This document shows, one piece after another, positions 17,920 through 44,658 of a stretch of DNA of 64,000 bases. Below the pieces are notes generated by a model. The model was not told where the DNA came from, made no database searches, and saw only the letters and a list, made by a program, of their open reading frames with translations. The DNA comes from Octopus vulgaris (taxonomy: Eukaryota). A program made the translations under genes and the position numbers. Every line of letters starts with the position of its first letter. Within the stretch, counting starts at the first letter, position 1. Location: positions 6,820,001-6,884,000 of the forward strand of contig OX597839.1 in the NCBI GenBank assembly GCA_951406725.2, written 5' to 3'.

Positions 17920-17963
17920 CTAGGGACACCGTGTTTCAGGATCATTGTCTTTCATCGGCCTAG
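17920..17963 (-). ncRNA. Minimal type I hammerhead motif, CCGAUGA core
   Basis: Reverse complement ctagg CCGATGA aagacaatgatcct GAAA cac g gtg TC cctag; perfect 5-bp stem I, stem III acac/gtgt with 1-nt loop, GUC triplet. Confidence 0.75.
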
Positions 17964-18077
17964 CGTGCGTGTGTGCGTGTGCGTGTGTGTGCACGAATAT
18001 ATGTAAATATTCATACATTCACACGCATACATACATACATACATACATACATACTTACATACATATATATATAAGCA

Positions 18078-18220
18078 TGACGGGCTTCTTTCAGTTTCTG
18101 TCAACCGAATACCCTTGTAAGGCTTTGGTGGGCTAGTAACTATAGTAGAAGGCACCACACGGTGGAACTGGATCCGGAACCAAATGGCTGGGAAGCAAAC
18201 TTCTCACCACACAGCCACCC
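18078..18220 (-). mobile_element. SINE family B, 5' module
   Basis: gacgggcttctttcagtttc..aagcaaacttctcaccacacagcc. Confidence 0.8.
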
Positions 18221-18386
18221 CCTGCACACACACACACACACACACACACACACATACACACACACACATACACACACACACACACACACACACACACACA
18301 CACACACACACACACATATAATTCAAATTTATAGAATGCAAAAGACGAAGACAGGTGAGGGAACAGCAAGCAGGTATATTAGTTTG

Positions 18387-18801
18387 AGCTGGCGAGCTGG
18401 AAGACACGTTAGCGCACCGGGCGAAATGCTTGGCGGTATTTCGTCTGCCGCTACAATCTGAGTTCAAATTCCGCCGAGGTCGACTTTGCCTTTCATCCTT
18501 TCGGGGTCGATTAAATAAGTACCAGTTACGCACTGGGGTCGATGTAATCGACTTAATACCTATGTCTGTCCTTGTTTGTCCCCTCTAAGTTTAGCCCCTT
18601 GTGGGTAATAAAGAAATAGGTATTTCGTCTGCCGTTACGTTCTGAGTTCAAATTCCGCCGAGGTCGACTTTGCCTTTCATCCTTTCGGGGTCGATTAAAT
18701 AAGTACCAGTTACGCACTGGGGTCGATGTAATCGACTTAATACCTATGTCTGTCCTTGTTTGTCCCCTCTGTGTTTAGCCCCTTGTGGATAATAAAGAAA
18801 T
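18387..18801 (+). mobile_element. SINE family A with a 184-bp internal tandem repetition and 15-bp TSD
   Basis: TSD aggtatattagtttg at 18372-18386 and 18802-18816; body repeated from ggtatttcgtctgccg at 18435 and 18619. Confidence 0.92.
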
Positions 18802-18838
18802 AGGTATATTAGTTTGTGGCTCGAGAAGAATGGAAAAG

Positions 18839-18876
18839 TCTTTGACGTTACGGGTATAAGTTCTTCGACAGAAAGG
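18839..18876 (-). ncRNA. Decayed hammerhead-like motif, CUGUCGA core (family Y)
   Basis: Reverse complement ccttt CTGTCGA a gaacttataccc GTAA cgt c aaaga; the host repeat (aaaagacgaag.caggtg..ttagt) matches 61232-61342. Confidence 0.5.
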
Positions 18877-19214
18877 GATGAGAGGAAGAAATGGAGAGAC
18901 AACGAATTAAAAAAAACGGAGAGGGAAAGGTATACAGGGATTAACAGTCCAACATGATATATATGTACGTGTGTGTGTGTGTGTGTGTGTGTGTGTGTGT
19001 GTGTGCGCGTGTGTTTGTATGACTGTCTGTGTTGATACTTGCTTAGGTGTACCCTCGCACAAATCTCCCCTTCACTAACATACCAATAAAATTTTGAACA
19101 CGAAAGTTTCGTTAGAGGTCCCTCGTAATCTATCATCATCGCTTTTTACCTGATTCATGACACAAATCTGCGACTATGGGGTAGGCAAAATATGGAGGCA
19201 GATAAAGTTGCTGT

Positions 19215-19425
19215 CTTCTTGTTTGTCGATGCGGATCCGTGGAACAAGCTGCCAGATGAGATGGTGAAGATGCCGACGACCGCTTTGTTCAAAGTCTCCC
19301 TTGACCTCAAGTGGCCTGAACTCTTTACATGAACACCACCATGTACATAACTCCATGTCCCCCTACATGGCCTTGCTTTTTGCTTTTTGAGCCAAAAAAT
19401 TAACTAACTAACTAACTAAGTAACA
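19215..19425 (+). mobile_element. CR1-like LINE 3' fragment
   Basis: DPWNKLPDEMVKMPTTALFKVSLDLKWPELFT* fits the CR1 ORF2 end WNxLPxxxVxxxxxxxFKxxLD; (CTAA)n tail at about 19400. Confidence 0.75.
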
Positions 19426-21201
19426 ACAGCGAGTTCAACGCCATTGAAATGCCTTTATTTTGTTGCAGTTGTTGATTAATCTAGATGTAAGCTAACTAAA
19501 CAGGTCTCGGTCGAAGATATCCCAACCTGAAAAGCGTAGCTTTTTATAAAGTGCAGGATTGAGATGAACAGACTATCCAACGTGCGTATCGTTATGATGG
19601 TGTAACGGCATCTTGTCAGCTGTTTCCAGCAGTCAAATCAACAGTAGATCCTAAACGCCATAGTTCATTTATATTTCAAGAAAATGAACTCTTTATCAAA
19701 AGAGGAATAGAGACTATAAGAAAAGAATTTGATGCATATCACACTTCTCAATTCGGAGCATTTGTAAAGCAAACGAAGCGCTTTCGAATGGGATCGAAAC
19801 CGACACATACAATCTCAGATCTAGAATAATCCAATTTTTAAATTTTATTTTGCCCTGCACTAAAAATGCCAGTATTCTCTTTCCGTTGTATGTTTTCATT
19901 ACATTTTATTACAGGCATGCAAATTTTTGAAATATTACTTTAAAAAAAACATCATATTTCAGTCTTGTTTTCCCATACATCATATTGCCCCGTTCCATAT
20001 CTGCCTGAGATTGTGAGTGTAATGAAGGAAAGGCTTTATTACGAATCCATACTTGATACTCTTCCACTATTAGCATATAATGAGAAAATACATACATATA
20101 TATATATATATATATATATATATATATATACATACGTACACATGATAGATATATAAAATGCTATATATATTAAATATATAATCATACACACACACGCACA
20201 CACACACACACATATATATATATATACCTTTACATATATATACATATATTTTTATATTAAATGCGTGTCTATATATGTGCTAAAATACGTTATATATACA
20301 TGTATATATATGCGTGTGTGTGTGCGTGTTAAAATATGATAAAGTATGTTATATATACATGCATACATACATACATACATACATACATACATACATACAT
20401 ACATACATACATACATACATACATACATACACACATACATACATATATATATATATAGCCTTGAATATATATCTTCACATTCAATGCATATATATATATA
20501 TGTTAAAATATGATATATATATGTATATATATATATACCTTTAAATATATATTTTCATATTAAATGTATATATATATATGTTAAATATGTTTTATACACA
20601 CACACACACATATATATATATATATATACACATATATATACATATATGTACATACTTTTATATATATGTATGTGTGCGTGCGTTTGTGTGTGTGTATGTG
20701 TGTGTGTTGTGTGTGTGTGTGTGTGTGTGTGTAGTAACGTGTGAATGACTTTATATGAATGTGTTCGCTTGGGTGTATCAATCGGCCTGGTTGTGTAGCA
20801 GGTGGAAAGATGGCGAAGCTTCTGGATTTCAAGGATTTTATACACTTTTTTATAGAAGGAAAAAAAGTGGAAACAAAAAAAAAACGTTAAAATATTTAAG
20901 TAAAAAATTACATCAACATTTTTGTTCCTTTATTATTTTTTTTTCTTGGATTAGAATATATTTTTTTGTTTTCTTAAAAATATTCTCAGCGAAATTGAAA
21001 TATTGTGAATTAAAATTAAATAATGAAACAAAGTAAAAAAAAAAAACAAAACCCCAAAAGACGAATATAAAATGAAATAAATAGTCTCAAAATATTTAAA
21101 AAATGCAAACAATATATATACATATATACAAAAATATCGAAATGCAACAGAAACTGAAACACGAAGACCCACCCCATTACCAGGAAAAAATAAAGGACTA
21201 T

Positions 21202-42683: not shown

Positions 42684-42900
42684 ATCGTGACGCATATTTA
42701 CCATTTGAATAAGGCTAACCCATAAGGGTGGATGCTACTGTAGTTTGTAACCCCAGGAAGATATCTCCTCCAGCTGGCTATAGACACACTATCTGTGTCC
42801 TCTCAGCCAGCTGGAGGAGATATCTTCCTGGGGCTACAAACTACAGTAGCATCCACCCTTATGGGTTAGCCATATTCAAATGGCAAATATGCGTCACGAT
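42684..42900. repeat. Near-perfect inverted repeat, ~105-bp arms, short spacer
   Basis: atcgtgacgcatattt..ccagctggct / agccagctgg..aaatatgcgtcacgat. Confidence 0.95.
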
Positions 42901-43040
42901 GTGTTACCGCTACTGTTTATAACTCGCTCTGAGATTTATCATTGTTATATATATATATATGTATATATACGCGTGTGTGTATGTATGTATATATATATAT
43001 ATATATACTTTATTTAAAAGCAGCAGAAATTTAGGAGAGT

Positions 43041-43078
43041 TTGTCCGACGAACGGGAACGTGAAACTCCGAGTAACAG
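43041..43078 (+). ncRNA. Minimal type I hammerhead motif, CCGACGA core
   Basis: ttgt CCGACGA acg ggaa cgt GAAA ctc c gag TA acag; all three stems pair; GUA triplet; lies inside the inverted repeat 43009-43033 / 43086-43110. Confidence 0.8.
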
Positions 43079-43250
43079 CTTTTGTTAAATTTCTGCTGCT
43101 TTTAAATAAAAACATATTACTCTACCTCTGGTATTTGAGTACTCTTTTTACCACTTTCTTTCACATTTATGTGTTTACTCTGGTATATATATATATATAT
43201 ATGTATATATATATATATATATATATATATATATATATATATGTATATAT

Positions 43251-43914
43251 TAGTTATCGCCATACTAATATGGCATTCTTATAAAAATAAGAATAAAGCT
43301 GACCGCTTATTAGCTCCATGAGGCCATCGCCTTAAGTTAGCTATTTGATACACAAACTGATGATATAACCTTTGAACAAGGAGTCAGTCGCTCCACACTA
43401 CTTGGCCGGCAGCTACAGACGCGTTTCGGGGTATTGCCCTTTCAATGCAGCGTAGCCAAACCAGTAGGTGTCGCTTCTGACAATCTCTGTTCAAAGGTTT
43501 TATTTACCTAGCTTCGGTGGAATACATCCACTTGTTTTCAATAATAGAAATATTAAAATTACAGTGCTGAGAACAACGCGTTCCTGCGCATACTAATATG
43601 GCATTCTTATAAAATAAGAATAAGCTGACCAGTATAGCATCGCTTAGTTAGCTATTTGATACACAAACTGTATCCATATAACCTTTGAACAAGTAGTGTG
43701 GAGCGACTGACCTCCCTTGTTCAAAGGTTATATGGATACAGTTTGTGTATCAAATAGCTAACTTAAGGCGATGGCCTCATGGAGCTAATAAGCGGTCAGC
43801 TTTATCCTTATTTTTATAAGAATGCCATATTAGTATGGCGATAACTAATATTTTCCAGGAACGCTGCCGTTGTTCTCTTTTAGAGAGACTTAGTAATTTT
43901 AATATTTCTATTAT
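43251..43914. mobile_element. Penelope-like pLTR arrangement: direct repeat plus inverted copy
   Basis: 43251-43401 is repeated directly (with deletions) at about 43588-43693 and inverted at 43693-43847; contains a hammerhead remnant; flanked by (TA)n. Confidence 0.7.
43412..43451 (-). ncRNA. Decayed minimal hammerhead motif
   Basis: Reverse complement gctgca TTGAAA gggcaatacccc GAAA cgcg TC tgtagc; 6-bp stem I, palindromic acgcgt stem III; 5' core damaged. Confidence 0.6.
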
Positions 43915-43994
43915 ATGTATATATATATATATATATATATATATATATATATATATATATATATTGTATATATATATACGTATAAGTATATATA

Positions 43995-44331
43995 TTTGTT
44001 TTTGTAGTTTCAGGTCAGAGCTGTGGCCACCCTGGAGCACCGCCGTTTTGCTACACTGGTATTACTGACATTCTCATCTAATATGTGGTACTTGGTGTAG
44101 AATGGAATTTGATGTAGCTATCCTCATTTGCTCCTCTTGCCGTGAGGGAGGTTCGTCTGGGATTCTCGACAGGAAGAGGTCCAGCCTTGATTTAAAAACG
44201 CCTGCATCTACTTTATGCAGGTTCCTTAGGCTCTTTGGGAGAATATTAAAAAGTTATGAGTCCCTGAAACCCAGGCTGTTGCAGTAACTGGTCCTGAAGC
44301 GCGATGGCATTGCTGGGATCTTTGGCGCTGT
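43995..44331 (-). mobile_element. CR1-like LINE 3' fragment
   Basis: [57 protein letters not shown], then a short 3' UTR. Confidence 0.85.
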
Positions 44332-44606
44332 ATATATACATACATATATATATATATATATATATATATATATATATATATATATATATATGTGTATGTA
44401 TATATATATATATATATATATATATATATATGCATGTATATATGTATATATATATCTATATTCACATGTCTGTGTGTATGTATCTATATATATATATATA
44501 TAGCTATAGTATCCCTACATATCTCACATCTATTTTCTTTCCTCCACCTCACTCTCTATTTTGTATCTTATCTAAATTAAGTATTAATTAACCATCCTCT
44601 CACATC

Positions 44607-44658
44607 GTCTCCGATGAAGGGATATAATTAATAAATATCCTGGAAGCAGCTGTAAGAC
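44607..44658 (+). ncRNA. Minimal hammerhead motif, CCGAUGA core, GAAG variant
   Basis: gtct CCGATGA ag ggatat..atatcc tg GAAG cagctg TA agac; stem I gtct/agac, palindromic stem III. Confidence 0.65.

What the first reader, a model, noticed from the sequence alone, without database searches (positions are those of the whole stretch)
17920..44658. Recurrent CCGANGA (U4C) hammerhead core in three unrelated elements
Seen: 17920-17963 (CCGATGA), 43041-43078 (CCGACGA) and 44607-44658 (CCGATGA) share no stem or flanking sequence yet have the same change at core position 4. The first two are otherwise nearly intact. The change creates a CpG, against the usual direction of methylation decay. Inference: a lineage-level natural core variant rather than independent decay.
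Basis: partly seen in the sequence, partly recalled or inferred. Interest (0 to 1): 0.8.

Follow-up and report, generated by a model that had tools for sequence, protein, structure and literature searches.

The report
U4C hammerheads fixed across Penelope-type families
Three unrelated jumping-gene families in this animal genome carry a self-cutting-RNA (hammerhead) motif in which a near-invariant core U is a C in about nine of ten or more of the copies read, so the change is the family norm and not decay; it likely arose several times and likely slows rather than abolishes cutting, which is untested.

Summary
All three motifs are real type I hammerhead folds with a short palindromic stem III. 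Each belongs to its own multicopy family (239, 1,579 and 432 exact-pattern hits). With position 4 left open, C is read in 98, 90 and 91 of the first 100 hits. The U4 copies look like later CpG decay: in family B, 6 of 7 U4 copies keep C4 in their inverted twin.

A is a ~365-bp tandem retrozyme-like unit. B lies behind a decayed Neptune-like RT in one copy. C has Penelope-type insertion anatomy but no ORF was found.

The change is not genome-wide. U4 and U3·A8 families coexist, also in this window. C4 recurs in four further families (F, G, H, part of D) beside U4 relatives, which favours several origins.

U4C is a known natural viroid variant, and this scan noted it before in phages. I did not find it reported as a family norm in animal Penelope elements; the main descriptor survey was blind to it, and Lünse 2017 could not be read. 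Cleavage is untested. Verdict: new variant of a known kind, interest 0.45.

The parts
17684..17966 (-). Family A insertion: 5'-truncated copy of a ~365-bp tandem, hammerhead-bearing non-coding unit (non-LTR retrozyme-like)
   Evidence: 93-97% to other copies; head-to-tail 365-bp units with one hammerhead each in L181-L185; unit folds at z -6.1
17920..17963 (-). Hammerhead A: C4 core, stem II AGGA/UCCU in the family (window copy has a private mismatch at 17950), near-palindromic stem III, bulged extension of stem I
   Evidence: (98 C, 2 T of first 100 of 239)
43003..43033 (-). 5' fold-back (inverted duplicate of 43080-43110) of the family B insertion; not the element's true upstream sequence
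   Evidence: inverted match; the true upstream sequence is seen in L253-L261
43041..43078 (+). Hammerhead B: C4 core, 3-bp stem II with GGAA loop, palindromic stem III with variable central base
   Evidence: (90 C, 8 T, 2 A of first 100 of 1,579)
43042..43185 (+). 3' end of a Penelope-like element (family B) with its tail, set in (TA)n
   Evidence: shared with 29 other copies; in L254 the same end lies behind a decayed Neptune-like RT on the same strand
44510..44735 (+). Family C insertion, 5'-truncated, in (TA)n; parent ORF not found
44607..44658 (+). Hammerhead C: C4 core, 7-bp stem II with extra bases at both ends, 8-nt palindromic stem III in the family; window copy has A15.1G at 44646
   Evidence: (91 C, 8 T, 1 A of first 100 of 432)

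Best explanation
The three motifs are hammerhead folds at the ends of three separate Penelope-type repeat families in which C is the majority letter at core position 4; the change likely arose separately in each family's source copy and likely leaves a slower but still working ribozyme that would cut multimeric transcripts as a dimer. Shown: the motifs, the family tallies, the C-to-T direction of change among copies, tandem 365-bp units for A, TA targets and 5' inversions, and one B copy behind a Neptune-like RT. Inferred: mobilisation in trans by PLE proteins, dimer cleavage through the palindromic stem III, separate origins, and residual activity. U4C would be the core change these elements tolerate best, and source copies carrying it kept multiplying although CpG decay keeps supplying U4 revertants.
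For: Tallies. In B, T at position 4 is 14 of 100 against 25 of 300 at three other CpG cytosines (p 0.12); U4 copies carry other CpG decay more often, 7 of 14 against 15 of 82 (p 0.016). 6 of 7 U4 copies with an inverted twin have C4 in the twin. In A, 2 of 100 T matches the family's CpG C-to-T rate of 1.9%. All three loop-III subgroups of B are majority C4: 30 of 30, 21 of 23, 31 of 47. Among 10 multi-copy clusters found with one core mismatch allowed at any position, majority changes were only U4C and A6U besides the compensated U3·A8 pair; none at G5, A9, G12, A13, A14 or A15.1, while N7 varies freely. Dimers fold lower than two monomers (A -50.0 vs -44.4, B -17.2 vs -9.8, C -26.7 vs -16.0 kcal/mol) and the B and C dimers form the inter-strand stem III. 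In A no U4 reached 3% in four public runs under four organism labels. Perreault 2011 (PMC3088659): U4C lowers activity in vitro yet supports viroid infectivity.
Against: No cleavage data. Roberts 2023 (PMC9901934) found all single and double mutants of the CUGA turn low in activity, with no rescue except the C:G swap, in a type III hammerhead. An abundant family here (F2) spread with A6U, a position where change is damaging (Perreault: A6C below 0.1 per min), and Naiad PLEs spread without hammerheads (Craig 2021), so spread does not prove cutting. Four of the C4 clusters (A, B, C, D) were targeted by my searches, so that count is not a neutral sample. Trees are weak: in D, C4 needs 5 changes, not significantly below shuffles (48 of 500); in F the U4 subgroup has 97/67 support. 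T at position 4 is uneven in B (12 of 47 T-loop vs 0 of 30 A-loop, p 0.002), and L219 has T in both twins, so a true U4 subgroup may exist. The RT link for B rests on one decayed, T4 copy; none of 9 other copies of that ORF end reached the hammerhead. The MFE dimer of A did not form the full inter-strand stem III, and no monomer MFE showed the active fold.
Confidence: 0.55

Rival explanations
1. Dead or nearly dead passenger: cutting is dispensable for these elements, and U4C was carried to high copy number by founder source copies.
For: Low activity of CUGA mutants; low activity of PLE min-hammerheads even with U4 (Cervera 2014); hammerhead-less Naiads thrive; the A6U family F2 is abundant; inserted copies run about 80-240 nt past the predicted cut site, so the template was uncut there, multimeric or circular.
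Against: The same change recurs in seven families, never as majority A or G; the other core positions and all stems stay intact while N7 and the loop-III centre drift. A transition bias alone would also hit G5, A9, G12 and A13-A15.1.
Confidence: 0.22
2. C4 is favoured: slower cutting is selected because it keeps more-than-unit-length or circular templates intact for reverse transcription, or keeps monomers from cutting.
For: Repeated fixation against CpG decay (about 2.4-fold faster at CpG in A); U4 revertants are 2-14% of copies yet successive B subgroups stay C4; the shortest branches in F are C4.
Against: Many U4 and U3·A8 families also spread, including the young intact 781-aa Neptune family; D is mostly U4; few source copies could keep C4 by chance.
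Confidence: 0.13
3. One ancestral C4 clade of PLEs or retrozymes with later reversions.
For: A, B and C all target (TA)n; short non-coding units lose similarity fast, so absence of alignment does not show separate origin; starred branches do not force more than one change in D.
Against: Different architectures (canonical-like A, short-stem B, long-stem C, stemless min-type F and H); nearest relatives of A and F are U4.
Confidence: 0.08
4. A host process such as A-to-I editing of fold-back transcripts writes U-to-C into the core.
For: The elements make fold-back RNA; heavy editing in cephalopods is recalled, and the host being an octopus is a recalled guess.
Against: Rare A-to-G and T-to-C changes are symmetric and lower than C-to-T and G-to-A in A (0.53, 0.48 vs 0.78, 1.01%) and C (0.98, 0.90 vs 3.02, 2.52%).
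Confidence: 0.02

Closest known systems
Hammerheads in pLTRs of metazoan Penelope-like elements (Cervera & de la Peña 2014, PMC4209133; Lünse et al. 2017, not read)
   Same: Type I, short palindromic stem III, optional extra base at 9a and 11a, mostly dispersed truncated copies, inverted pairs, known U3·A8 covariant
   Different: C4 is the majority letter; all 56 representatives in Fig. S3 have U4, and that paper's descriptor fixes 'cuganga', so it could not see C4
Non-LTR retrozymes of animals (Cervera & de la Peña 2020, PMC7229834; Li, Clavereau & Pollet 2026, 10.64898/2026.07.22.740005)
   Same: Family A: non-coding ~365-bp head-to-tail units, one type I hammerhead per unit, strongly self-paired, 1-3 units per insertion
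   Different: C4 core; circular RNA and cleavage not shown here
Neptune clade PLEs (Craig et al. 2021, PMC8557442)
   Same: (TA)n targets, 5' inverted copy, tail on one end; B lies behind an RT remnant with a Cys-rich linker like the genome's 781-aa PLE
   Different: Clade assigned by resemblance, with no tree; no ORF for A or C
Natural U4C hammerhead of a viroid (Ambrós & Flores 1998 as cited in Perreault 2011) and CYGANGA descriptors (PMC13481778)
   Same: Same substitution, regarded as slower but viable
   Different: There a rare variant of single replicons or viromes; here the norm of families with hundreds to thousands of genomic copies

Membership tests
Type I hammerhead ribozyme | Three-way junction with stems I, II, III | tested here: met
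   Descriptor scans with shuffles; different stem sequences, same fold in A, B, C. Window copies of A and C each carry one private lesion.
Type I hammerhead ribozyme | C3, G5, A6, G8, A9, G12-A14, A15.1-U16.1, H17 | tested here: met
   Commonest letter at every one of these columns in 42 A, 103 B and 37 C held copies
Type I hammerhead ribozyme | U4 of the consensus core | tested here: not met
   C in 98, 90, 91 of first 100 hits; a known viable exception
Type I hammerhead ribozyme | Rfam RF00163 gathering score | tested here: not met
   0 hits in L032, L002, L065, L181
Type I hammerhead ribozyme | Self-cleavage at H17 | not testable with these tools
   No assay; only contigs were available
PLE-associated dimeric hammerhead | Short palindromic stem III able to pair between two copies | tested here: met
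   Palindromic in A, B, C; inter-strand helix in MFE dimers of B and C, not fully in A
Penelope-like element (EN+) | RT plus GIY-YIG ORF upstream of the hammerhead | tested here: inconclusive
   B: one copy, RT E 1e-18, linker and endonuclease only faintly aligned. A and C: none in 30 and 42 loci
Penelope-like element (EN+) | 5' truncation, inverted 5' copy, tail, microsatellite target | tested here: met
Non-LTR retrozyme (family A) | Non-coding tandem units of about 150-450 bp, each with a type I hammerhead | tested here: met
   365-bp units in L181-L185; unit junction also in four public runs
Non-LTR retrozyme (family A) | Accumulates as circular RNA | not testable with these tools
   No run on record as RNA; contigs cannot tell a circle from a tandem

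The most novel reading that the evidence does not exclude
Penelope-type elements in this genome have repeatedly been selected for a throttled ribozyme: U4C was fixed independently in at least seven families (and A6U in another) against CpG decay, making on the order of 10^4 core-variant hammerheads that CUGANGA screens miss, and cleavage rate is a tuned parameter of retrotransposition.
Probability: 0.15. Interest if true: 0.75.

Novelty: new variant of a known kind. Interest (0 to 1): 0.45.

Why it matters
Why Penelope-like elements keep hammerheads is open (Craig 2021 suggests they may even be parasites of the element). Families that have fixed a core change, beside U4 relatives and natural U4 revertants in the same genome, give matched natural pairs to test whether cutting, and how fast, matters. 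It also shows that hammerhead censuses built on a fixed CUGANGA miss whole abundant families: 2 of 9 clear C3-G8 motifs in a random 200 kb were C4. The substitution itself is known, and the elements are of known kinds, which caps the surprise.

Tried and rejected
Rfam scan of the window at E ≤ 1: the 150 of 442 rows shown were microsatellite look-alikes. Repeat finders were swamped by microsatellites. ORF list of the window showed no PLE ORF by eye, and tblastn of a PLE ORF gave no hit in the window. The U4 candidate at 15944(-) has weak stems and was set aside as chance. GIY-YIG search: the 30 loci taken of 150 hits were mostly one young family with a U3·A8/U4 hammerhead; none had A, B or C as its own 3' end; B in L155 and C-like pieces in L164 look like separate insertions. 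Search for a parent ORF of C: none in 12 loci taken of 47 hits. Search to repeat the B-RT link: 9 other loci were interrupted before the hammerhead. Tree of family D did not resolve C4 as a clade. A-to-I editing: no signature. Sequencing runs: no RNA holder listed. B read as a MITE-like palindrome: rejected, the left arm differs between copies and the true upstream sequence exists. A second random 200-kb sample could not be taken, so the random sample is 20 stretches. Papers not held: Lünse 2017, Arkhipova 2017, Ambrós & Flores 1998, Nelson & Uhlenbeck 2008.
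Full report
OBSERVATION. Each has the hammerhead core with C at position 4, three stems and a short palindromic stem III. The three repeat units share nothing beyond noise (z -1.4 to 1.9). Two window copies carry private lesions: A has a stem II mismatch at 17950 (41 of 42 held copies G) and C has A15.1G at 44646 (35 of 37 A). The window lies in a 2.8-Gb, 227-contig genome; that it is an octopus is my recalled guess from a SINE, not a tool result.

FAMILY TALLIES. Exact patterns with position 4 open gave 239 (A), 1,579 (B) and 432 (C) hits, with 0 for the reversed controls. For A, four public runs under four organism labels covered the site and showed no U4 at 3% or more; every G>A place counted for each run is accounted for by other positions. 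These are contigs, and RNA is a guess for two of them.

DIRECTION OF CHANGE. In B, with five CpG cytosines left open (first 100 of 1,771 hits), position 4 read 82 C, 14 T, 3 G, 1 A; three other CpG sites read T in 7, 8 and 10; the fifth, the loop-III centre, marks subgroups (47 T, 30 A, 23 C). 14 of 100 against 25 of 300 is not significantly different (p 0.12), and U4 copies more often show other CpG decay (7 of 14 vs 15 of 82, p 0.016). I fetched 13 of the 14 T copies, the A copy and 26 of the C copies. Seven T copies have an inverted twin that spans position 4; six twins have C, one (L219) has T. If the twin is made at the same insertion (inferred from PLE biology), the template had C and the T came later. 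Against a pure decay reading: T is uneven between subgroups (12 of 47 vs 0 of 30, p 0.002). In A the 2% T equals the CpG C-to-T rate of 1.9%.

WHAT THE ELEMENTS ARE. A is a ~365-bp non-coding unit found as 1-3 head-to-tail copies with one hammerhead each, often with an inverted partial copy, ending in TA. The unit is strongly self-paired (z -6.1), and stem I extends through a bulge. This fits non-LTR retrozymes. B is a short 3' end; its left arm in the window is a fold-back, and the true upstream sequence appears in L253-L261. In L254 it follows a decayed RT on the same strand (tblastn E 1e-18 to the genome's 781-aa PLE ORF, with a Cys-rich linker visible in translation). That copy is T4, and nine other copies of the ORF end were interrupted before the hammerhead, so the link is single. 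C shows 5' truncation, inversions, a tail and TA targets, but no ORF in 42 loci.

GENOME CONTEXT. C4 is not universal. Rfam RF00163 found mostly U4 motifs (28 of 30 loci parsed: 23 U4, 5 C4). In 20 random 10-kb stretches the descriptor gave 12 rows: C3-G8 with U4 7, with C4 2, with A4 1, and U3·A8 2 (one U4, one likely chance); five shuffles gave 11 rows, none C3 with U4 or C4. In held DNA, families not searched for were F (12 C/6 T), G (2/2), H (2/3) and U4-only E, I, J, K, W and the young Neptune-like family (U3·A8, 19 of 19 U4). D, searched by pattern, is 41 T/17 C/1 G of 59. F's sister family F2 has U4 with A6U and any base at N7. In the F/F2 tree the U4 copies of F partly group (97/67) and most C4 copies have short branches; the D tree is unresolved. 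A's weak relatives I and K are U4. With one mismatch allowed anywhere in the core, 10 multi-copy clusters showed majority changes only at 4 (to C) and 6 (to U) (A, B, C and D were targeted). Scaling F's two C4 copies in 200 kb suggests on the order of 10^4 copies; this is a rough extrapolation.

MECHANISM. Most likely (0.55): the motifs cut multimeric transcripts as dimers through the palindromic stem III, as proposed for PLE and retrozyme hammerheads (Cervera 2014; Weinberg 2019 review). U4C slows this but is tolerated, arose in several source copies, and spread with them. Computed dimers are more stable than two monomers, and B and C form the inter-strand helix; A did not in the MFE. Rivals: a passenger in elements that do not need cutting (0.22), positive selection for slow cutting (0.13), one ancestral C4 clade (0.08), editing (0.02; spectrum symmetric). 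Cleavage was not tested.

LITERATURE. Perreault 2011 (PMC3088659; passages and section 8): U4C is a natural viroid variant, slower in vitro, viable in vivo; hits with any core mutation were rejected, mostly 'cryptic mutant hammerheads' in repeats. Cervera 2014 (PMC4209133; parts 1-2 of 4 of the text and the whole supplement as text): 56 of 56 representatives U4, descriptor fixed at cuganga. Craig 2021 (PMC8557442; passages): PLE insertion anatomy, and relaxed cores used without detail. Roberts 2023 (PMC9901934; passages; supplement list only): CUGA mutants low. PMC13481778 (passages): CYGANGA descriptor for viromes. Cervera 2020 (PMC7229834), de la Peña 2017 (PMC6155905), PMC8490949 and PMC6765202: passages. 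Li 2026 preprint: part 1 of 5 and passages; its supplements are closed and may hold descriptors. Nine searches, using U4C, CCGANGA, CYGANGA, CCGAUGA, Penelope, octopus and terminon, listed no report of C4 as a family norm in animal PLEs. Lünse 2017 (about 150,000 PLE variants, recalled), Arkhipova 2017, Ambrós & Flores 1998 and Nelson & Uhlenbeck 2008 were not held, and figures are not visible, so prior report is quite possible. Earlier scan notes record U4C as a recurrent minority variant in phage hammerheads and none on this genome.

VERDICT. Real and well supported as a family-level variant; not a single lineage-wide trait; new variant of a known kind; interest 0.45.

Noticed in passing
window 61216-61390 (-), core at 61337; also 7765 (-); L036, L021, L038 and others: Abundant minimal-hammerhead family (F2) with an A6U core (CUGUNGA) and N7 varying by subgroup; the 7765 copy has A6C. 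Sister to the C4 family F. A second family-level core variant.
   Followed up: partly
L209:9262 (+) and 17 other held copies: Family F: very abundant stemless minimal hammerhead, 12 C4 and 6 U4 among held copies, with a U4 subgroup.
   Followed up: partly
window 43201-43851, core at 43445 (-): Family J insertion with a U3·A8 hammerhead (one base lost in the window copy) and inverted partial copies, 370 bp from hammerhead B.
   Followed up: partly
window 60252 (-): U4 hammerhead with a long stem II; one relative in L121.
   Followed up: no
window 42666-42900: Fold-back fragment of family K without its hammerhead; K is weakly similar to family A.
   Followed up: no
L187 (G000:C16:20835000-20842000): Young Neptune-like PLE: 781-aa open frame (RT, Cys linker, GIY-YIG) seen in 16 of 150 listed hits, preceded by a 359-aa ORF, with a U3·A8 hammerhead; a likely mobiliser of TA-targeted units.
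   Followed up: partly
window 46819-47397 (-): ORF end that looks like the C-terminal zinc-knuckle region of a LINE (recalled resemblance, no search).
   Followed up: no
window 18435-18807: Two tandem 184-bp copies of a very common SINE (recalled as an octopus SINE).
   Followed up: no
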